A stretch of 64,000 bases of DNA, taken from an uncultured Candidatus Saccharibacteria bacterium (lineage in GTDB: Bacteria; Patescibacteriota; Minisyncoccia; Phycocordibacterales; CAYSCM01). The notes under the pieces were generated by a model. The model made no database searches and was not told the origin of the DNA. It worked only from the letters and a program-made list of their open reading frames with translations. The translations under genes and the position numbers were made by a program. Shown here in pieces: positions 1-12,416 of this stretch. Location: NCBI GenBank assembly GCA_964429815.1, contig CAYSCM010000001.1:160001-224000 (forward strand). The letters run 5' to 3'. Numbering within the stretch: the first letter of the stretch is position 1; each line of letters begins with the position of its first letter.

Positions 1-229
1 TATGCCCAATACTTATGGGGTATACGGGAACTTCACATTGCCAAGCAATTTTAAGAATTAGAGAAATTTCTTTTTCATTTTCTGGAAGCAAAGCTCCCCC
101 GATCTGCTTACTATCTAACTCTATTGTTGACGCACCATAACGTTCCTGAGCCACATCTGGAGGCAAGACTCTTGAGTTTCCGAGTAATCCCCTCCATTGT
201 TCTAATGCCTCGGTAAGCCCCTCTGACAT
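1..229 (-). CDS. FAD-linked oxidoreductase (FAD_binding_4/PCMH-type), N-terminal fragment; the gene runs off the left window edge
   Basis: Minus-strand ATG at 229 opens MSEGLTEALEQWRGLLGNSRVLPPDVAQERYGASTIELDSKQIGGALLPENEKEISLILKIAWQCEVPVYPISIGH and continues past position 1. The ...P..E.E...I.K.A....VPV.P.G.GH pattern is typical of the N-terminus of FAD-linked oxidases. It is the last gene of the AT-rich island operon. Confidence 0.4.
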   Translation of the reverse strand, partial: MSEGLTEALEQWRGLLGNSRVLPPDVAQERYGASTIELDSKQIGGALLPENEKEISLILKIAWQCEVPVYPISIGH

Positions 230-290
230 GCAGTAAGGCTATCATGAACTCTCCTTTGCTGGGTGCGAACTAATTCGCTTGGAGATTCAA

Positions 291-1427
291 CTAAAAATTG
301 AAGCCGACGCTAAGCAAAAACGTTTTGAATTCGGAAGAAACAGCAGCTAATTTCTCTGCGCGAGCTTTCAAAAAATCTGAATCTGAACGAGTAGCGAGAT
401 CTGAGAAAAAATTACGAATTATGACATTCTGGAACGAATCTGCAGTAGCTTCACTGAATTTTTGGAGAGTCAGCTTGATGTCGGATATCCGCTCATTTCC
501 ATAAAACTCTAGAAGAAAGTTTGCATAGAAAAATCTAGCCTGCATAAAGACACCCCGCGTTTGATAACTTTCCTCATCTTCTCCCACTTTCGGTAAAGCG
601 TCCTGGAACGCCATCTCTCGCTCCTGAACTGCAATGTTTTTTAATACTCGGCTACTCGCGTTCATGCTGATAGCACGATAAAGACGCTGTCTTGCTACAT
701 GACTTGGTTCATATACCAAAGAGCTTTTGGACATATCGCCTCGTTTGATAAGTTCCTGAATTCTTGTGGCAAGAGTTTCCTTAGTCATTCCATTTGGAAT
801 AAAATTATTCGTTAGGAAACCGCTATATAGATATGCCGCTGAATAATTTGCGAGTGAATTTGGATATTTCTGGTCAGAAAGTAGGAAAAAATTAATTGCG
901 ACTAGACGCATATCTTCAGATGTAGAGGTTGCGGGCAAAAAAGAATTGTAGGGGGCTTCCTTGAAATTTGTTTCATAAAAAGTTCGGTCGCGAGAAGCTA
1001 TAAGAAAACCGATATCATCCAGAGCAGCGGCTATATTTGCAGGTGAGGAGGATGTATCGGCCAGAAAAGTTTTGTATATCTGCAGAGCCTCGGTTCGGTC
1101 ATTTCCCTCATTTCGGTTCCAAAGATCGAACGCTAGCATTGCATTTAGATGAAATTTTGTATTACTGTCCTGCGCCTCGATGATGAGGCTCCTCTCAGCA
1201 TCAATCGAACCATTCAAATCTCCACTATGATGGAGAGTGTGTGCTTCTTCATAATTTTTCCCGAACAATGTCATGGTGGCGTTACCTTTGTAGTACAAAG
1301 CATACCAATAGTAAACACCACCTGAAATCGCAACAACTAAAAGAATCAGAGTTAGGCGGAATGCTACTCTAGAGCTTTGCGGTCGTGATCCGATTGATTG
1401 CTGATCTGGAGAACTCTCCATATTCAA
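291..1427 (-). CDS. Hypothetical membrane-anchored protein (one N-terminal TM helix, large soluble domain); island operon member
   Basis: 378-aa ORF. N-terminal hydrophobic segment LTLILLVVAISGGVYYWYALYY. K/N/Y/F-rich composition matches the AT-rich island. Start lies 13 nt after the upstream peptide stop. No recognisable motif. Confidence 0.5.
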   Translation of the reverse strand: MNMESSPDQQSIGSRPQSSRVAFRLTLILLVVAISGGVYYWYALYYKGNATMTLFGKNYEEAHTLHHSGDLNGSIDAERSLIIEAQDSNTKFHLNAMLAFDLWNRNEGNDRTEALQIYKTFLADTSSSPANIAAALDDIGFLIASRDRTFYETNFKEAPYNSFLPATSTSEDMRLVAINFFLLSDQKYPNSLANYSAAYLYSGFLTNNFIPNGMTKETLATRIQELIKRGDMSKSSLVYEPSHVARQRLYRAISMNASSRVLKNIAVQEREMAFQDALPKVGEDEESYQTRGVFMQARFFYANFLLEFYGNERISDIKLTLQKFSEATADSFQNVIIRNFFSDLATRSDSDFLKARAEKLAAVSSEFKTFLLSVGFNF

Positions 1428-1439
1428 ACGCTAGATTTT

Positions 1440-1751
1440 TTAGCAACACTCAAGACCACCACCTTGCACCGACGCTTCACAACTTCCTCCTCCCCCACCC
1501 CCTTCAGCAAATCCATATCCCGATTCAGAATAATATGATGACTGGCCATAGTATCCTGACTGGCCGTAGTACGTAGATTGACTATAAGGAGTATCGGCTG
1601 AAGTAACGTTTGGAACGGCAAGTCCGCCAAGATTCCCTACTGATGGCACAGCGGCTGACGAATCTTTATTCAATAGATTAGTGAAGAAAATAAAAACTAC
1701 CAGAGAGGCAAGTGACAAAGCATTGATAACTAGTTGTCCAAGCGAACGCAT
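1440..1751 (-). CDS. Small membrane-anchored Gly/Tyr/Ser-rich peptide with a C-terminal Cys-containing tail; candidate substrate or precursor of the adjacent YcaO
   Basis: 103 aa. N-terminal TM/signal-anchor LVINALSLASLVVFIFFTNLL. Low-complexity repeats YYGQSGYYGQSSYY. C-terminus GGGGGGSCEASVQGGGLECC. It sits directly downstream of the YcaO gene in the same operon. Confidence 0.45.
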   Translation of the reverse strand: MRSLGQLVINALSLASLVVFIFFTNLLNKDSSAAVPSVGNLGGLAVPNVTSADTPYSQSTYYGQSGYYGQSSYYSESGYGFAEGGGGGGSCEASVQGGGLECC

Positions 1752-1801
1752 ATGTTAATAATACCAAGTTGGACAAAGTAGCCCAAGAACTTATGAACAC
1801 C

Positions 1802-3334
1802 CTATGGAAACGGGTGGGGTGTCACATTCACCTCAAAGTCACTGCTATCTTTATATCCGAAAGGATATAAACGAGAAGAGCCGAGAGGTGCAAACGTTTC
1901 ATTCATATAAAGAGAAATAAGCCCGGGAACACAGATTTTTACTGAATGATAGTTGAGTTTTCGTAGAATGGGATGACTAGCTTCAAATAAAAATACTTCG
2001 TAAGCAGGACCTCTCGCCTTAAATAGTTCCAGTAACTCATCGAGTCTTTCTCGTGGGGATCGGATAGTTTTATCTTTCCTCAAAAAAGGTACGGGGGTGG
2101 CTGCGATAAAAAAAGAAAACCTGTCGAGAAGTTCTGGTTTCGCCCATAAGAGCTGGCGATTGAAAGCACCCCACTCAAGCGTAAAAGGTTCTATTGAATT
2201 CAGGGAAGGAAGTTCGTCACTTGGTTCATTAACGTTTTGCCAAATGCGCACACTGAGCGCCTCAACAAGAGCTCGTAACAACGAATCTTCGTCATCACCC
2301 CCACACCCACCACCAAGACTTACTGCAGCTCCTCTCCCAGTCCTATCTAACACTGCGGCAATATACACCGGAATACCTACAGCAGAGTCTAGCTGCATAA
2401 AATGAACTTCTAGACCTGCCTCCCTACATTCTTTAAGATGGTGGGTAATACGCGGATCGGTGAATGACTCGACACTTATTTTTTTTGGGATGCGTTTGGT
2501 AAGCCAGTACAGTAAAAATGCATCACGTTGAATAAGTTCATAAAGTCCCGATAGAATCGCCTCATCTCTAGTGAACATTCCCCCCGCCCCATTAGTGTTA
2601 GATTCACGTAACACGGGCTCACCCTCTGTTGCGCGGTAGTTAAAAAAAACCAGTTGTGCGGGAATGAGAGCGTCACGACGTTTTGTCAACGAATAACCTT
2701 CAACAAAGTTAAAAATGCTGTCCCTGGTAAAAAACCGTCTGGGAAAACGTTTTTTCTGCCATGTCGAAGCATGTGAAGCAAGGAAAGGGTCGAGGAAGTG
2801 TCTTTTCCCGCGCTCCAAATCGCTAATTGAGGCTCGGCACAGATCTTTTTCGCGATAAATTGATAGCGGGTAACGCTCGAGTAGTTCCCCGAATACCTTC
2901 GAGAGTGCTTCTTGTATATCACCAGATATCCCCCTACTGTATCCTCCGCTTGCCACTTCTGGGGAACCATCGGTTGGAGAATTTGCTGCCCAGAGCCTTA
3001 CCGCGAAAAGACTTGGCTCCCCATGTAAAACCTTATCGAAGGTAATGTTCGGTTGCTTTAAAACTCCATTTGCATATAAGTACTGGCTCAATATTTGCCA
3101 TTCTGGAGGAATAGGATATTGCTGGGTCGGAAGAATTTCTGGATAAGAAGGCAACGGGTGGCCATGTTTCAGTCGAAGTATATCGGCGAAAGAAACGGGT
3201 AAATGATATCGAAAATGTGGGCCGACTGGGTAGCGCAAAGGATAATTTACCTGGTTATAAAAAGGTAGATAGGTGCCTAGACCTCGTTGGTTTTCGGAAT
3301 TTTTTTCTAAAACCGTAATCGGTTGGTTAAGCAT
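1802..3334 (-). CDS. YcaO-domain protein (ATP-dependent amide-backbone activating enzyme family)
   Basis: ORF listed 1802..3460. The internal Met at 3334 gives an ATG overlapping the upstream TAA, typical translational coupling, so I take 3334 as the probable start. YcaO N-terminal motif GYSRGISGDIQEALSKVFGELLERY. Core motif SNTNGAGGMFTRDEAILSGLYELIQRDAF (compare E. coli YcaO SNGMSAGNTRNEARVQGLSEVFERY). Pro-rich C-terminus ...VTPHPFP as in azoline-forming YcaOs. Confidence 0.75.
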   Translation of the reverse strand: MLNQPITVLEKNSENQRGLGTYLPFYNQVNYPLRYPVGPHFRYHLPVSFADILRLKHGHPLPSYPEILPTQQYPIPPEWQILSQYLYANGVLKQPNITFDKVLHGEPSLFAVRLWAANSPTDGSPEVASGGYSRGISGDIQEALSKVFGELLERYPLSIYREKDLCRASISDLERGKRHFLDPFLASHASTWQKKRFPRRFFTRDSIFNFVEGYSLTKRRDALIPAQLVFFNYRATEGEPVLRESNTNGAGGMFTRDEAILSGLYELIQRDAFLLYWLTKRIPKKISVESFTDPRITHHLKECREAGLEVHFMQLDSAVGIPVYIAAVLDRTGRGAAVSLGGGCGGDDEDSLLRALVEALSVRIWQNVNEPSDELPSLNSIEPFTLEWGAFNRQLLWAKPELLDRFSFFIAATPVPFLRKDKTIRSPRERLDELLELFKARGPAYEVFLFEASHPILRKLNYHSVKICVPGLISLYMNETFAPLGSSRLYPFGYKDSSDFEVNVTPHPFP

Positions 3335-5216
3335 GTTTTTTATATAAAAGCCTTGATATACCGAGTAAAATATGTGCGCTGGAATCAACCCACGCATCGG
3401 GGTTATTGTTATCGTGACGAAATCCTCCAACAAGCTTGTCTTGTCGTTCTTTAGGAACAAAAAAAAGATTGGTTTCGTCGTACTGCATTTTAGAAAGCCA
3501 ATCTAGCGCTCTAGCAAGGACTACTTTGTTGTTTTTCGAGTCAACAGCCAAAACCTCAAAAATTTTTCCTGTACCTCGGGTAAAAGAAAAAACAGAATTT
3601 TTTGTTCGAGGAAATGACCCGTCACTATTTTGTGAATTTTTCATCCAGAAAGTCACACGGTCCACAACCTCCATATTGTGGGGGAAGAAAAGATTTACAA
3701 GTTCAGCGTATAAAGCAAACTCAATACCTTCTCGTTTCTCTATATCTTGGTCAAATTTTTCAACCAAACGTCTCTCAAGAACCGGGGCTCCGCTTTGCTC
3801 CCACTGTGCAACAGGCATAATGAGTCGAGCCAGACCAAGCGCATGTGACAGCGTTATCACATCGTCACGCCAATAAAGTGGCAATAGGGACGCTAAAAAT
3901 TTTTCTGCAAGCTTTCTTTCACCGAGAGCCCAGGCTGCTTTGCCCAGATAAGCTCTAGTTAGATCAGCGCCGGCAATTTCTCTGGGGCGCCGATCCAATT
4001 GCTTTTCTATAGCCGCCATGCCACGATGTGCCGCCTTAACATAGTCCCGTCCAATCGATATTTTGGAAAATTCCGCAAGCGCCCACACAGCATATGCCTG
4101 CCTGGGCCAATCAGCAGTAGGAGAAGTGTCCTTTCGAGCCGAGACAATGACACGGAAATTTCCATCTGCGTCTTGATTAAAAGAAAGCCAGGTGGCAATT
4201 TTTTGTGCGACAGCAATTTCATTCTCCGCATTTTCTTGTACAATAGGCCCCTTTAGCGAATATATAGTTCCTATTCTTTGCGGAAATTCTATAAGATCTT
4301 CCACTTCGAAACTTACTGTCTCGGCTTTATCGATTGAACCCTGTATCGAAGCTTTTTCCCTGGCAAGGTTTAATAACAATTCGGGCATTCCGGAAAAATG
4401 TCGAATATTGAATATTTCCGGCAAAAACCAACCGCGATGGCTGCCGAGAGCCAAAAGATACCCCTTATCAGTGTATATGTCGCTGTTCTGTTTTTCTTTT
4501 TGTGTGAGCGGAATACGTAAATGACCCATAAGCGTAATTTCGATTACGACAGTTTCAAGCTCACTAGGGCCTATAGGTTTAAAACGTGGATCTCGAGCAG
4601 CCATCATAGCCGCCGTGGCAACTGCTTGTCCGATTTCCTTATTTTCTATGATGATGGAGCCGCGAAATTGTCCCTCAATCCAGAATGCTACATCAACATC
4701 ATTACGTAAGTGTAGACGCGTAGATCTTTGTGGAAGAATAAATTTTTCATCTCCATTATTGACATAATGTGTAAGTGCATGCCGGGCAATCCTGAATAAC
4801 TCCTTCTTTTCTTCATTTAATAAACCCCACCGTAATGGCTGCGGTGAAACGTTTCGCTTTTTCGACTCACGTATCTGGATAGTTGGCGAGGAATATAGGA
4901 TGGCCCACATTTCATCTACTTCCACGGATATCGGTGAATATTCGATAATAAATGTTATAGAGTCTTTGGAAGGAGGTGGGGGGATTTCGATAGGATGGTC
5001 ACCATACGTGAGCGGAAATGAAAAAGAAAAATATCTAACCTTCCCCTTCCCTCTTAAACAAAGGATGTCCTCTTTATTCGCCAATGTGCTAATAAAAAGA
5101 AAAGTTTCTTCAATTTGACGAGAAAAATGTTTGTTAAAAAATCTCTTATGGGGGGTGAAAAAAAAACCCTTTCGCATGATGAAGGCATCATAACACTCAG
5201 AAAATATCTGTAACAA
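3327..5216 (-). CDS. AMMECR1-domain protein fused to a C-terminal alpha/alpha-toroid (prenyltransferase/terpene-cyclase-like or LanC-like) repeat domain
   Basis: AMMECR1 signature LNEEKKELFRIARHAL ... RGSIII ... AVATAAMMAARDPRF ... YLLALGSHRGWFLPEI. C-terminal Q-x-DG-x-F type repeats (NQDADGNFRV, NSQNSDGSFPR, VGGFRHDNNNPDAWVDSSAHILLGI). The true start may be an internal Met near 4910. Confidence 0.55.
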   Translation of the reverse strand: MLQIFSECYDAFIMRKGFFFTPHKRFFNKHFSRQIEETFLFISTLANKEDILCLRGKGKVRYFSFSFPLTYGDHPIEIPPPPSKDSITFIIEYSPISVEVDEMWAILYSSPTIQIRESKKRNVSPQPLRWGLLNEEKKELFRIARHALTHYVNNGDEKFILPQRSTRLHLRNDVDVAFWIEGQFRGSIIIENKEIGQAVATAAMMAARDPRFKPIGPSELETVVIEITLMGHLRIPLTQKEKQNSDIYTDKGYLLALGSHRGWFLPEIFNIRHFSGMPELLLNLAREKASIQGSIDKAETVSFEVEDLIEFPQRIGTIYSLKGPIVQENAENEIAVAQKIATWLSFNQDADGNFRVIVSARKDTSPTADWPRQAYAVWALAEFSKISIGRDYVKAAHRGMAAIEKQLDRRPREIAGADLTRAYLGKAAWALGERKLAEKFLASLLPLYWRDDVITLSHALGLARLIMPVAQWEQSGAPVLERRLVEKFDQDIEKREGIEFALYAELVNLFFPHNMEVVDRVTFWMKNSQNSDGSFPRTKNSVFSFTRGTGKIFEVLAVDSKNNKVVLARALDWLSKMQYDETNLFFVPKERQDKLVGGFRHDNNNPDAWVDSSAHILLGISRLLYKKHA

Positions 5217-5261: not shown

Positions 5262-5333
5262 GCCCTCGTCGTTCAATGGATAGGACGCAAGCTTGCGGAG
5301 CTTGTAATGTCAGTTCGATTCTGGCCGAGGGCG
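5262..5333 (+). tRNA. tRNA-Arg, anticodon GCG by manual folding
   Basis: Cloverleaf: acceptor GCCCTCG/CGAGGGC; D-arm GTTC-AATGGATA-GGAC; anticodon arm CAAGC-TTGCGGA-GCTTG; T-arm GTCAG-TTCGATT-CTGGC; discriminator G. The anticodon assignment should be confirmed with tRNAscan-SE. Confidence 0.7.
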
Positions 5334-5549
5334 CACATAGGGATTTTTGCGCCCGGCCAAAATCGAACGGGAAGGGGTCGGGGAACGGGAGTTCCCCGGG
5401 AGGAAAGCAGAGCGAAGCTCGTCGGAAACCATGGGTTTCTGAAGAGCCACCCTGCGGCGAGTGAGATAGCGAAGCGTCTGGCCGAGGGCGCCCATTTCCC
5501 AAGCGCCGCTTTTGTGGCATCATCCCGAGAGCTTAGTGAGGAGAGTTCG

Positions 5550-10651: not shown

Positions 10652-10655
10652 CAAG

Positions 10656-10729
10656 TCCGCCCGGCAGGACTCGAACCTGCGACCTTCTCCTTAAAAGGGA
10701 GCGGCTCTACCAAACTGAGCTACGGGCGG
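10656..10729 (-). tRNA. tRNA-Lys (anticodon TTT)
   Basis: Minus-strand read: CCGCCCG-TA-GCTC-AGTTTGGTA-GAGC-C-GCTCC-CTTTTAA-GGAGA-AGGTC-GCAGG-TTCGAGT-CCTGC-CGGGCGG-A. Anticodon loop CU-UUU-AA. Confidence 0.8.
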
Positions 10730-10807: not shown

Positions 10808-11449
10808 TTAACCTTCGTTCTCGAATCTCTCTTTAACGAAAGTAAGGAACTGTGAACTTACGACCGTCATGGCGGTCATGAGGCCGTATAAGATTACGAA
10901 GGTTATCACGGTCCAGAATGTTGACAGGGTCCTGCTGAAGATGGTCATCCAAGCGAAATAGAATACCATAACTGCGATGAGCCAGCTGCCAACATCCAAG
11001 TTGCGAAGTGTTATGGGACGAAGCCATTCGCATCGTTCGAAATACTTCGGCTTGCACTGCGCCCGAACATAAAAACGGGTAATGATCGCAGCGATGCCGA
11101 GGGCACTCATGAGAACAAACCACCAGTGTGATAATTCTCCCATTTTCAGTATCGCAGCGTACTCCAAGAAACCTAGCATGTAGGGAAATGCAACATCGGG
11201 GAAACGTGGTGTCGTTCTCATAATGAGTATCCACCAAGAGTATTCCGTTACTACCAGAAGTATTGCACACAATACTGCAAAAGCTTGAAGATAGAGCAAC
11301 ACGGACTCTTTTGTTTCTGCCATCCTCAAGATCAATCCACCAAGAGCGATGCTTTGGATTACTCCAAGCGAGGTGAGGTATGAAGAGGCAAAAAGTTCTT
11401 CAGAACGTCTCCGGAACTCGGCAGCATTTAGGGGCATGACAGCCTCCAT
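10808..11449 (-). CDS. Polytopic membrane protein, unknown family (paralog copy 1)
   Basis: 213 aa with about 6 hydrophobic helices (MPLNAAEFRRRSEELF...). A near-identical paralog lies 1 kb downstream. Confidence 0.6.
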   Translation of the reverse strand: MEAVMPLNAAEFRRRSEELFASSYLTSLGVIQSIALGGLILRMAETKESVLLYLQAFAVLCAILLVVTEYSWWILIMRTTPRFPDVAFPYMLGFLEYAAILKMGELSHWWFVLMSALGIAAIITRFYVRAQCKPKYFERCEWLRPITLRNLDVGSWLIAVMVFYFAWMTIFSRTLSTFWTVITFVILYGLMTAMTVVSSQFLTFVKERFENEG

Positions 11450-11553
11450 AGTCGGTTAGAACTTTTCGAAGCGACCTTACCGCAGAATCTTGCAAAAATC
11501 AATAAATATGTTATCATACTTTCTGGCAAGCTAGATTTTTGAAGGAGACGCAG

Positions 11554-11670
11554 ATGCAAGAAAGCCCTCAAAAGGAACAGGGGTTTTGGGATCGGTGGGG
11601 TACTCTGGTCTTCATCGGTCTACTCTTTGGGACCATGGCTGTAGTCGCGGCAAGCAAGCACTTCGCTTAG
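11554..11670 (+). CDS. Small single-TM peptide (38 aa) with GFW-x2-W motif, divergent from the membrane-protein gene
   Basis: RBS GAAGGAGA upstream. MQESPQKEQGFWDRWGTLVFIGLLFGTMAVVAASKHFA. Below the 60-aa cutoff of the ORF track. Conserved promoter-like TTGCAAAAATCAATAAATATGTTATCAT upstream. Own terminator. Confidence 0.45.
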   Translation: MQESPQKEQGFWDRWGTLVFIGLLFGTMAVVAASKHFA

Positions 11671-11683
11671 CGTCCCACGAACG

Positions 11684-11720
11684 GGCCCCGATGGTTTTTC
11701 ATTGGGGCCTTTTCTTTTTC
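11684..11720 (+). terminator. Rho-independent terminator after small peptide 1
   Basis: GGCCCCGATGGTTTTTCATTGGGGCC hairpin plus TTTTCTTTTT. Confidence 0.6.
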
Positions 11721-11751
11721 CTTAAATAGAAAGAATGAAACGCTCAAGCGC

Positions 11752-11780
11752 GAAAAAATAAGCCCCGCATACGCGGGGCT
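11752..11780 (-). terminator. Rho-independent terminator of paralog copy 2
   Basis: AGCCCCGCATACGCGGGGCT hairpin with a flanking T-tract on the minus strand. Confidence 0.5.
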
Positions 11781-11785
11781 CGGGT

Positions 11786-12416
11786 TCAGCTTTGGCGTTC
11801 AAATTCTTCCTTAAGCGACCTGAGGAAGTTTGAACTTATGATGGCCATCGAAACCATGAGGCCGTACAGGATGATGAAAGTTGTCACGGTCCAAAACGCT
11901 GACAGTGTTTTGCCAAAGATGGCCATCCATAGAAAATAGAAGGCCATCACAGCTACGAGACCACTGCCAATGTCAAGGTTGCGTAGCGTCAGTGGCCGGA
12001 CCCGGTCGCATTCTTCGAAATATTTTGGTTCGCATTGCCCTCGTACGTAGAAGCGCGTGATGATCGCTATGACGGCTGAGGCGGTCATACTGATATACCA
12101 CAGGGGTTCCTTGCCTATCAGCCAGCGCAATCGACACATACTCAAGGATTCCTAGCAGGTACGGAAAGACCGCGTCGAGAAAACTTGGTGTTTTCCTCAT
12201 AATTATTAGCCACCAAGTATATTCAGTTACCACCAGAAGTATTGCAAGTATTGCGGTCATGCCTTCTAACATGAGAACTGTTGAGGTTGGCGATTCAGCT
12301 ATTTTTAGTACGAGTCCACCAAGGGCGACACTTTGAATTACGCCGATCGAACTGAGATAAGACCCTGCAAACATTTCCTCGGAACGTCTTCTGAATTCCG
12401 CTGCGTTTAAAGGCAT
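11786..12416 (-). pseudogene. Frameshifted second copy of the polytopic membrane protein
   Basis: Two overlapping ORFs (11973..12416 and 11786..12145) together align end-to-end with copy 1. The frame switches near 12125-12135 (...EYVSIAL | GKEPLWYISMTASAVIAIITRFYVRGQC...). No homopolymer at the junction. Confidence 0.55.

What the first reader, a model, noticed from the sequence alone, without database searches (positions are those of the whole stretch)
3327..5216. Unusual fusion: AMMECR1 domain joined to an alpha/alpha-toroid (terpene-cyclase/prenyltransferase or LanC-like) repeat domain, translationally coupled to YcaO
The AMMECR1 signature (…AVATAAMMAARDPRF…, …SHRGWFLPEI…) occupies roughly residues 130-300. 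The C-terminal 300 aa carry Q-x-DG-x-F/W-type repeats (NQDADGNFRV, NSQNSDGSFPR, GGFRHDNNNPDAWVDSSAHILLGI) characteristic of alpha-alpha toroid folds. AMMECR1 is normally standalone or partnered with Memo and radical-SAM proteins, and a fusion to a toroid domain is not a standard architecture. Its stop overlaps the YcaO start, which implies a functional partnership, and it could be the missing YcaO partner or scaffold.
Basis: partly seen in the sequence, partly recalled or inferred. Interest (0 to 1): 0.6.

Follow-up and report, generated by a model that had tools for sequence, protein, structure and literature searches.

The report
AMMECR1–toroid protein coupled to YcaO
This is one real gene for a three-domain protein (a small beta domain, an AMMECR1 domain and a barrel like that of terpene cyclases) from a family that is almost confined to ultra-small CPR (Candidate Phyla Radiation) bacteria and has not been described; it sits in gene clusters for small cysteine-rich modified peptides, where it is usually coupled to, and sometimes fused with, the ring-forming enzyme YcaO.

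Summary
Window 3327..5216 (-) is one uninterrupted ORF, most likely starting at the ATG at 5177 (616 aa). It has an N-terminal beta domain, a genuine AMMECR1 domain and an (alpha/alpha)6 barrel closest to small class II terpene cyclases, not LanC. Its stop overlaps the ATG of a SagD-type YcaO by 8 nt.

The architecture is not a one-off. A profile search finds at least 150 near-full-length clusters (263 at E<=1e-30), and named genome hits are almost all CPR/Patescibacteria. I found no paper or curated family covering it.

The linkage to YcaO is strong:
- In the window's clade, 25 of 25 evaluable loci have a YcaO.
- Four clusters are single-chain AMMECR1-toroid-YcaO proteins.
- Relatives show SagB-fusion-YcaO order, and no E1-like partner was seen.

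The linkage is not obligate. About a third of loci have the protein without YcaO, often beside a PRTase-propeller protein, and 3 of 7 sampled sister YcaOs lack it within 5 kb.

The constant companions are a small precursor peptide with a hydrophobic leader and a Cys/Gly/acid-rich tail, and a membrane-anchored TPR protein.

My best reading is a peptide-handling hub with its own conserved site, serving here as the YcaO partner. The mechanism is inferred.

The parts
3327..5216 (-). Gene for the three-domain AMMECR1-toroid protein. The longest ORF starts at the TTG at 5216 (629 aa). The probable true start is the ATG at 5177 (616 aa).
   Evidence: Full-length homologues.
4863..5120 (-). N-terminal domain, residues about 33-118: one helix plus six strands. 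It has no Pfam match. It is absent from the short (about 550 aa) Moranbacteria members and from three of the four YcaO-fused proteins.
   Evidence: AF2 secondary structure. No Pfam hit even at E=10. Profile start positions.
4251..4817 (-). AMMECR1 domain, residues about 134-322. The DxRF motif is kept (D209-P-R211-F212). The canonical RGChG cysteine is replaced by serine (R185-G186-S187).
   Evidence: Pfam. PDB profile alignment. Fold matches. Motif definition from PMC2034487. Conservation.
3333..4220 (-). (alpha/alpha)6 barrel, residues about 333-628. It carries repeats like the QW motifs of terpene cyclases (WLSFNQDADGNF, WMKNSQNSDGSF, WLSKMQYDE). The most conserved motif of the family is YTRGTGKIFEVL, with K551 invariant in 128 sequences.
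3327..3334 (-). 8-nt overlap (ATGCTTAA) between the stop of the fusion gene and the ATG of the YcaO gene.
   Evidence: Sequence. The same start is used in public gene calls.
1802..3334 (-). YcaO, 510 aa, of the SagD/TOMM (thiazole/oxazole-modified microcin) type. It ends in PHPFP, a PxPxP motif. It has an N-terminal extension of about 140 aa with no family match.
   Evidence: Pfam PF02624 at 162 bits; TIGR03604 at 180 bits, below its cut-off of 219. Alignment with the L001 orthologue. Meaning of PxPxP from PMC12338566. No Pfam hit for the N-terminus.
1440..1751 (-). Candidate precursor peptide, 103 aa. It has an N-terminal hydrophobic helix, then the motif ..VTSADTPYSQ.., then a Tyr/Ser/Gly-rich tail ending GGGGGGSCEASVQGGGLECC.
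   Evidence: A small ORF of the same design sits in the same position in most loci with enough downstream sequence. It is called as a gene in L083.
291..1427 (-). Membrane-anchored TPR-like protein ('p378' family, 376-378 aa). It follows the precursor in nearly all loci.
   Evidence: TPR similarity. A weak profile link to the alternative 'p390' family.
5262..5334 (+). tRNA-Arg(gcg), flanking the cluster. It marks the boundary of a low-GC island.
   Evidence: ARAGORN. GC by gene. The same tRNA flanks the cluster in L085 and L088.

Best explanation
The ORF encodes a soluble three-domain protein: an N-terminal beta domain, an AMMECR1 domain whose predicted catalytic Cys is Ser, and a terpene-cyclase/prenyltransferase-like (alpha/alpha)6 barrel. 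The three domains pack as one rigid unit.

It belongs to a family, almost confined to CPR bacteria, that is a dedicated component of gene clusters making small modified peptides. Each cluster encodes a precursor with a hydrophobic N-terminal leader, a conserved A-x-(A/S)-D-x-P-like junction and a Gly/Asp/Glu/Ser/Cys-rich tail. Each also encodes a membrane-anchored TPR protein.

In the window the protein is co-translated with an azoline-forming (SagD-type) YcaO. I infer that it acts as the peptide-handling hub of the pathway: it binds the precursor and presents it to the YcaO for ATP-dependent cyclodehydration of Cys/Ser. In that role it would take both the operon slot and the job of the missing E1-like SagC/McbB partner.

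It also keeps a conserved ligand-binding or catalytic site of its own. Related lineages appear to use that site with other catalytic partners.

Shown: the domain structure, the family, the gene linkage and the fusions. Inferred: peptide binding, activation of YcaO, and any chemistry.
For: - One gene and one rigid fold: pLDDT 93.3 and pTM 0.92 over 629 residues.
- Tight coupling: an 8-nt overlap here, and junctions of a few nucleotides in many loci.
- Co-occurrence: a YcaO lies directly downstream in 25 of 49 evaluable distinct loci and somewhere in the locus in 29. It is present in 25 of 25 evaluable loci of the window's clade.
- Covalent fusions: P0039, P0041, P0063 and P0146 are single AMMECR1-toroid-YcaO chains. 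P0039 was seen in context in L084, beside a precursor and a p378-type protein.
- Cluster type: the YcaO is SagD-like and ends in PxPxP. Neighbouring nitroreductases pass the SagB peptide-dehydrogenase cut-off.
- Operon slot: the order SagB-fusion-YcaO recurs in L007, L027, L028, L085 and L089.
- No canonical partner: no ThiF/E1-like, TfuA or PqqD/RRE Pfam family appears among called neighbours in five distinct loci.
- Hub behaviour: the protein is also fused to a PRTase + PQQ-propeller protein (L024) and to a polyprenyl-phosphate-sugar-type GT2 (P0150). The PRTase-propeller protein is adjacent in 12 loci, nearly all without a YcaO.
- The same kind of precursor and TPR protein accompany it in all contexts.
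Against: - Twenty of 49 evaluable loci carry the protein with no YcaO.
L088 is syntenic with the window. So neither component strictly needs the other nearby, and this YcaO subfamily may be partner-independent, perhaps through its own 140-aa N-terminal extension.
- Near-invariant charged and polar residues in both domains, identical with and without YcaO, look more like an enzyme or ligand site than a passive scaffold.
- No RRE-like element was detected.
- No interaction, binding or activity was tested.
- The window itself lacks the SagB dehydrogenase.
Confidence: 0.45

Rival explanations
1. It is an autonomous tailoring enzyme. The AMMECR1 cleft (R185-G-S187, D209-x-R211-F) and the basic centre of the barrel (R372, R547, K551, R600, H615, Y423, Y579) form an active site. 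That site modifies the Cys/acid-rich core itself, for example by Cys-directed alkylation or lipidation, or by chemistry on a phosphate-bearing co-substrate. On this view YcaO, SagB, PRTase-propeller and GT2 are independent add-on modules acting on the same peptide.
For: - The family occurs without YcaO but with the same peptide and TPR genes.
- The YcaO subfamily occurs without it.
- The conserved polar residues are identical in both contexts.
- The strongest motif, YTRGTGKIFEVL, sits at a helix N-terminus, a typical anion-binding position.
- The nearest folds are isoprenoid-handling cyclases.
- Cys lies at or near the extreme C-terminus of most precursors (..LECC..GCCTM..GDCN).
- AMMECR1 was predicted to be an enzyme (PMC2034487).
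Against: - There is no conserved Cys/His metal triad as in protein prenyltransferase beta subunits or LanC, and no DxDD cyclase motif.
- The predicted catalytic Cys of AMMECR1 is replaced by Ser.
- End-to-end fusion with YcaO in four clusters and translational coupling argue for a physical complex rather than mere co-residence.
- No isoprenoid genes are conserved in the loci; they were seen only in L001.
Confidence: 0.33
2. It is a cytoplasmic chaperone or holdase for export or immunity. It sequesters the hydrophobic, signal-anchor-like leader (or the finished product) until modification is complete, then hands it to the membrane TPR protein.
For: - Precursors carry an N-terminal hydrophobic helix followed by an acidic tail, although YcaO chemistry needs cytoplasmic ATP.
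- The protein always occurs with the membrane-anchored TPR protein.
- The barrel has a central cavity.
Against: - This is purely inferential.
- Invariant charged residues are not what a binder of hydrophobic helices would be expected to conserve.
- Fusions to catalytic enzymes fit a biosynthetic role better.
Confidence: 0.12
3. It is an ordinary AMMECR1 housekeeping protein whose adjacency to YcaO is coincidental, or the ORF is an artefactual join of two genes.
For: The AMMECR1 domain is genuine. AMMECR1 proteins are widespread and have been linked by prediction to RNA modification.
Against: - At least 150 colinear full-length homologues exist.
- The model is confident as a single chain.
- The gene neighbourhood is conserved over dozens of divergent loci.
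- Covalent YcaO fusions exist.
- No Memo or radical-SAM trio is present, and the protein scores below the AmmeMemoRadiSam cut-off, 55 against 99 bits.
Confidence: 0.02

Closest known systems
E1-like cyclodehydratase partner of azoline-forming YcaOs (SagC/McbB 'C protein'; Ocin-ThiF-like 'F protein') in TOMM/LAP (linear azole-containing peptide) biosynthesis
   Same: It is encoded immediately upstream of, and translationally coupled to, a SagD-type YcaO. The operon order SagB-X-YcaO mirrors sagBCD. Like the fused C-D heterocyclases (LynD, TruD), it is sometimes covalently fused to the YcaO.
   Different: There is no sequence or fold relationship. The protein is AMMECR1 plus an (alpha/alpha)6 barrel, not an E1/ThiF Rossmann fold with an N-terminal RRE. 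It also occurs without YcaO, and the YcaO occurs without it. No role in leader binding or activation has been tested.
AMMECR1 family (PF01871; structures 1vaj, 1zq7, 1wsc; protein A of the bacterial AmmeMemoRadiSam system)
   Same: It scores above the Pfam gathering cut-off. It has the same duplicated-RAGNYA fold, and the DxRa and G-x-LP-x-V motifs are kept.
   Different: The predicted catalytic Cys of RGChG is Ser in at least 90% of the family. No Memo or radical-SAM partners are present, and it scores below the TIGR04335 cut-off. It is embedded between two extra domains. Its context is peptide maturation rather than the RNA modification predicted for AMMECR1.
Single-domain class II terpene cyclases and the prenyltransferase-type (alpha/alpha)6 barrel (for example 8paj, MstE 6sbb, drimenyl-PP synthase 8zg0)
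LAP gene clusters already reported in CPR genomes (Sharrar et al. 2020, PMC7298704)
   Same: They contain YcaO plus nitroreductase plus a nearby Cys/Ser-rich small ORF, in Parcubacteria, Microgenomates and related lineages. That survey found 110 clusters in 93 genomes.
   Different: The report lists YcaO, nitroreductase and a peptidase. It does not mention an AMMECR1-toroid protein, the TPR membrane protein or the hydrophobic leader. Full-text searches found no paper linking AMMECR1 with YcaO and only unrelated papers holding both AMMECR1 and 'RiPP' (ribosomally made, modified peptide).

Membership tests
AMMECR1 (PF01871) | Match to the family HMM above the gathering score | tested here: met
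   48 bits against a cut-off of 25, residues 142-305. All 7 members of A1 match.
AMMECR1 (PF01871) | Two-lobed duplicated RAGNYA fold as in 1vaj and 1zq7 | tested here: met
AMMECR1 (PF01871) | RGChG motif with the predicted catalytic cysteine (PMC2034487) | tested here: not met
   The motif reads R185-G186-S187-I-I. Position 187 is at least 90% conserved (as Ser) across the 128 sequences, and Cys occurs there in only a few members.
AMMECR1 (PF01871) | DxRa motif | tested here: met
   D209-P-R211-F212. D and R are invariant in both context classes.
AmmeMemoRadiSam system protein A (TIGR04335) | Score above the curated cut-off, and Memo plus radical-SAM neighbours | tested here: not met
   55 bits against a cut-off of 99. 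No Memo neighbour was seen. A radical SAM lies upstream only in the L004 and L057 lineage.
Terpenoid cyclase / protein prenyltransferase (alpha/alpha)6 barrel | Six-hairpin alpha/alpha barrel fold | tested here: met
Terpenoid cyclase / protein prenyltransferase (alpha/alpha)6 barrel | Sequence-family membership (PF13243, PF00432) | tested here: inconclusive
   SQHop_cyclase_C scores 21.2 bits against a cut-off of 26.1, in 4 of 7 members. QW-like repeats are visible by eye.
Terpenoid cyclase / protein prenyltransferase (alpha/alpha)6 barrel | Catalytic DxDD (class II cyclase) or Asp/Cys/His zinc site (prenyltransferase beta subunit) | tested here: not met
   No conserved Cys and no DxDD appear among the nearly invariant columns. 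The conserved residues are R372, Y423, R547, K551, E554, Q578, Y579, R600, D611 and H615.
LanC-like cyclase | LanC fold as the closest match, with a Cys-Cys-His zinc site | tested here: not met
TOMM/LAP cyclodehydratase partner (SagC/McbB E1-like, Ocin-ThiF-like) | Homology to the E1/ThiF-like fold with an N-terminal RRE | tested here: not met
   No Pfam or NCBIfam match of that kind. The fold is AMMECR1 plus toroid.
TOMM/LAP cyclodehydratase partner (SagC/McbB E1-like, Ocin-ThiF-like) | Encoded next to, or fused with, the YcaO and required for its activity | tested here: inconclusive
   Adjacency and fusion are met. The requirement cannot be tested here, and YcaOs without the fusion exist.
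TOMM/LAP biosynthetic cluster (the locus as a whole) | Azoline-forming YcaO with a C-terminal PxPxP | tested here: met
   PF02624 at 162 bits. TIGR03604 at 180 bits is the best NCBIfam hit but falls below its cut-off of 219. The protein ends in PHPFP.
TOMM/LAP biosynthetic cluster (the locus as a whole) | SagB-type FMN dehydrogenase | tested here: not met
   None is found anywhere in the 64-kb window. It is present and above cut-off in most relatives.
TOMM/LAP biosynthetic cluster (the locus as a whole) | Precursor peptide with a Cys/Ser/Thr-rich core that is actually heterocyclised | not testable with these tools
   A candidate ORF is conserved in position and design. Modification needs mass spectrometry.

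The most novel reading that the evidence does not exclude
The AMMECR1-toroid protein is a new class of precursor-recognition and activation hub for ribosomally made, modified peptides (RiPPs). It would replace the RRE/E1-like partner non-homologously and recruit interchangeable catalytic modules: YcaO, a PRTase-beta-propeller protein, or a polyprenyl-phosphate-type GT2. Alternatively, or in addition, it performs a previously unknown modification of C-terminal Cys/acid-rich peptides. Either case would give the first biochemical handle on the AMMECR1 fold, whose function, including that of the human disease gene, is still unknown.
Probability: 0.3. Interest if true: 0.8.

Novelty: new variant of a known kind. 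Interest (0 to 1): 0.64.

Why it matters
Azoline-forming YcaOs are thought to depend on E1-like or ThiF-like partners that bind the leader peptide. Here a large family, found almost only in uncultivated CPR bacteria, has a structurally unrelated protein in that operon position, and it is sometimes fused to the YcaO. If it is a true partner, it widens the known ways in which YcaO enzymes recognise substrates, and it should be added to genome-mining rules, which currently see only YcaO and nitroreductase in CPR clusters.

It also places an AMMECR1 domain in a defined, experimentally tractable peptide pathway. AMMECR1 has had no known biochemical activity for some 20 years, and its human homologue is a disease gene.

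The associated peptides are unusual as well: a hydrophobic leader, an A-x-A-D-x-P junction, and an acidic tail carrying Cys. They come from organisms believed to live as epibionts, where secreted or surface peptides could mediate contact with the host.

Tried and rejected
- Word-indexed homologue searches, with the protein and with alignment A1, returned only 6-10 proteins and suggested a tiny family. The exhaustive profile search showed this was a sensitivity artefact.
- The search for related loci with the 128-sequence alignment failed for lack of a conserved stretch. The 7-sequence alignment worked.
- The first AF2 run, with 7 sequences, was too poor to use (pLDDT 63.6). The run with 128 sequences was used instead.
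- The afdb50 fold library was unavailable.
- LanC-like reading rejected: no LanC among the top structural hits and no Zn ligands.
- Class II cyclase or prenyltransferase chemistry not adopted: the catalytic motifs are absent.
- Pfam scans of the N-terminal domain and of the YcaO N-terminal extension found nothing, even at E=10.
- The window's 378-aa protein and the 390-aa protein of other loci show no BLAST similarity and only a weak profile link (61% probability). Both are TPR-like with an N-terminal membrane helix.
- The 491-aa protein upstream of the YcaO in L087 is unrelated to the fusion family.
- No SagB-type dehydrogenase was found in the window.
- Burroughs et al. 2019 on Memo-AMMECR1 systems could not be read.


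Full report
**1. What is in the sequence**

Window 3327..5216 on the minus strand is a single ORF of 629 codons starting at a TTG. Public gene calls on identical DNA start at the ATG at 5177, giving 616 aa. The first 28 residues of the long form are disordered in the model and absent from homologues, so I take 5177 as the likely start. Residue numbers below use the 629-aa frame. The stop TAA (3329..3327) overlaps the ATG (3334..3332) of the next gene as ATGCTTAA. The 510-aa product from that ATG is exactly what public collections hold.

**2. Domains**

- AMMECR1. Pfam finds it at residues 142-305 (E=1.3e-12, 48 bits against a cut-off of 25). A family profile hits the three solved AMMECR1 structures.
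- C-terminal half by sequence. It gives only sub-threshold matches to SQHop_cyclase_C and the macroglobulin TED domain.
- Structure model. With 7 sequences the AlphaFold model was poor (pLDDT 63.6). With 128 family members it is excellent (pLDDT 93.3, pTM 0.92).
- Layout from the model: a beta-rich N-terminal domain (about 33-118), the AMMECR1 domain (about 134-322) and a helical barrel (about 333-628). The high pTM implies that the three pack rigidly.
- Missing catalytic signatures. The barrel carries QW-like W-x5-Q-x2-DG-x-F repeats. It has no DxDD motif and no conserved cysteine, so neither cyclase nor prenyltransferase/LanC-type zinc chemistry can be assigned.
- The AMMECR1 site. The DxRa motif is retained (D209-P-R211-F). 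The cysteine of the RGChG motif, which Balaji and Aravind predicted to be catalytic (PMC2034487), is serine in at least 90% of the family.
- The strongest motif of the whole protein is YTRGTGKIFEVL in the barrel, with K551 invariant in 128 sequences.

**3. How common it is and where it occurs**

The word-indexed search found only six relatives. An exhaustive profile search of 1.84 billion representatives found 263 clusters at E<=1e-30. Most of the best 150 are near-full-length proteins of about 550-690 aa; the rest are shorter pieces or longer fusion proteins. In the species-representative genome set, 16 of 19 genuine hits are named CPR/Patescibacteria lineages: Parcubacteria/Paceibacterota, Moranbacteria, Saccharibacteria and Taylorbacteria. 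Fifty-five more loci came from metagenomes. No curated NCBIfam model covers the family. Full-text searches found no paper that mentions AMMECR1 together with YcaO, and the six papers holding both AMMECR1 and 'RiPP' are unrelated to peptide biosynthesis.

**4. Gene context**

I built HMMs for the neighbours and scanned all the loci.

- Of 49 distinct loci with enough downstream sequence, 25 have a YcaO directly downstream, 29 have one somewhere in the locus, and 20 have none.
- On a neighbour-joining tree the family splits into two clades. In the window's clade, 25 of 25 evaluable loci carry the YcaO. The other clade is mostly YcaO-less.
- Four representative clusters are single polypeptides of AMMECR1-toroid-YcaO. 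One of them was seen in context in L084, followed by a precursor and a p378-type protein.
- The YcaOs are SagD-like and end in PHPFP or PHLFP. PxPxP is the motif associated with azoline-forming YcaOs (PMC12338566).
- The frequent nitroreductase neighbours pass the SagB peptide-dehydrogenase cut-off.
- In L007, L027, L028, L085 and L089 the order is SagB-fusion-YcaO, that is sagB-sagC-sagD with this protein in the sagC slot.
- No ThiF/E1-like, TfuA or PqqD-type protein appears among the called neighbours.
- The window itself has no SagB homologue anywhere in its 64 kb.

**5. The constant companions**

In most loci with enough downstream sequence a small ORF of 65-126 aa lies just upstream of a membrane-anchored TPR-like protein of about 360-410 aa. 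That protein belongs to either the 'p378' or the 'p390' family.

The small ORFs share a design:

- a basic N-terminus followed by a hydrophobic helix;
- a junction such as ..AHADVP.., ..LADAPSGG.. or, in the window, ..VTSADTPYSQ.. (p390-type loci use ..AQAQxCW.. instead);
- a tail of about 20-55 residues (longer in a few loci) rich in Gly, Asp, Glu and Ser, with 2-12 Cys, often at the very C-terminus (window..GGGGGGSCEASVQGGGLECC).

These look like precursors of linear azol(in)e peptites of the microcin-B17 type, but with an unusual leader that resembles a signal anchor.

**6. Evidence against a simple 'YcaO partner' reading**

- The YcaO-less loci keep the peptide and TPR genes. They typically have a PRTase + PQQ-beta-propeller protein next to the fusion gene. 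This was seen in 12 loci, and the two are fused into one 1082-aa chain in L024.
- Another member, P0150, is fused to a polyprenyl-phosphate-sugar-type GT2.
- One of those three, L088, is syntenic with the window (Mur ligase, RuvA, S20, tRNA-Arg(gcg), then the cluster) yet lacks the gene.
- The near-invariant polar residues of both domains are the same in YcaO-linked and YcaO-less members.

**7. Interpretation**

Two points I regard as shown. The protein is a dedicated component of these peptide clusters. In the window's lineage it is functionally tied to the YcaO.

How it works is inferred. The reading that best joins all the observations is a peptide-handling hub. It would bind and present the precursor to whichever catalytic module it is paired or fused with, while carrying a conserved ligand or catalytic site of its own. 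In the window it would therefore act as a non-homologous stand-in for the E1-like SagC/McbB partner (confidence about 0.45).

The main rival is an autonomous tailoring enzyme that acts on the Cys/acid-rich core, with YcaO as an independent add-on (about 0.33). A chaperone, export or immunity role is possible (about 0.12). Coincidence or artefact is effectively excluded.

**8. Comparison with what is known**

LAP clusters in CPR genomes have been reported from antiSMASH surveys as YcaO + nitroreductase + peptidase (PMC7298704; PMC12153355). Neither report mentions this protein. It meets the membership tests for the AMMECR1 fold, but not for the catalytic Cys or the AmmeMemoRadiSam context. It meets the (alpha/alpha)6 fold test, but not the catalytic signatures of cyclases, prenyltransferases or LanC. 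It is not homologous to E1-like partners. I therefore rate it a new variant of a known kind: a TOMM/LAP-type system with a new, structurally unprecedented companion protein.

**9. Limits**

No binding, activity or complex prediction could be run. Whether genomes whose cluster lacks the fusion encode the protein elsewhere is unknown.

Noticed in passing
window 1..5216, continuing beyond the window start in L082:4158-13273: The cluster lies in a low-GC island of about 9 kb. Its genes have GC 0.41-0.46, against 0.56-0.61 for the flanking genes. The island begins right after tRNA-Arg(gcg). The same tRNA flanks the cluster in L085 and L088, and the Mur ligase-RuvA-S20 synteny recurs in L088 and L090 (S20 alone in L085). 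This looks like an old tRNA-associated insertion or a compositionally distinct module.
   Followed up: partly
L082:9106-13273 (just outside the window; window 1..229 holds the 3' end of the first gene): The same island also carries a FAD_binding_4 oxidoreductase (579 aa), a borderline sulfotransferase-like protein (26.4 bits against a cut-off of 27) and a weak AMP-binding-like protein of 476 aa. The window's precursor is unusually Tyr-rich (YYGQSGYYGQSSYYSESGY), so Tyr sulfation or another oxidation may replace the missing SagB step. The FAD and AMP-binding-like genes recur in L085, L027, L067 and L091.
   Followed up: partly
window 1440..1751 (-), and equivalent small ORFs in L001-L091: The candidate precursors have a leader that resembles a signal anchor (a basic N-terminus and a hydrophobic helix). 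About 20 residues later comes a conserved A-x-(A/S)-D-x-P junction. That spacing is too far from the helix for a standard signal-peptidase I site. How a cytoplasmic ATP-dependent YcaO would act on such a peptide before membrane insertion is unexplained.
   Followed up: partly
L011:6023-7669, L013:9651-11315, L024:6312-9560 and 10 further loci: A phosphoribosyltransferase + PQQ-type beta-propeller protein (about 550 aa) is the recurrent neighbour of the AMMECR1-toroid gene in loci without YcaO. The two are fused in L024. Its role is unknown.
   Followed up: partly
L011:11152-12792, L013:11334-14534, L016:5790-7463: Loci without YcaO are followed by small genes for a rhodanese, a DsbA-like thioredoxin and a predicted membrane protein. 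This suggests disulfide handling of the exported Cys-containing peptide outside the cytoplasm.
   Followed up: no
L084:2882-5972, and the P0041 locus: Loci with single-chain AMMECR1-toroid-YcaO proteins also encode a second, shorter YcaO. In L084 it resembles methanogenesis marker 1, has no PxPxP end and is followed by a SagB-type dehydrogenase. Both loci also encode a SPASM or radical-SAM/SPASM protein. These clusters may install two kinds of YcaO modification.
   Followed up: no
L001:14904-16076, L004:14538-15716 (the p390 family): The alternative TPR membrane protein has a strongly conserved N-terminal domain, with invariant residues including ..YWGD.. and ..VHDHDFGNNYEISY... It has no Pfam match and recalls a papain/C39-like peptidase core without an obvious catalytic Cys. 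It co-varies with the AQAQ-type leader junction.
   Followed up: no
window 10808..12416 (-), next to tRNA-Lys 10655..10729: There are two tandem paralogous membrane-protein genes, both beginning MPLNAAEFRRRSEE... The second is split into two overlapping ORFs (11973..12416 and 11786..12145), which suggests a frameshifted copy.
   Followed up: no
L087:6569-7366: A Hint/intein-like domain protein (265 aa) sits between the YcaO and the p390-type TPR protein, in a locus that lacks the AMMECR1-toroid gene.
   Followed up: no
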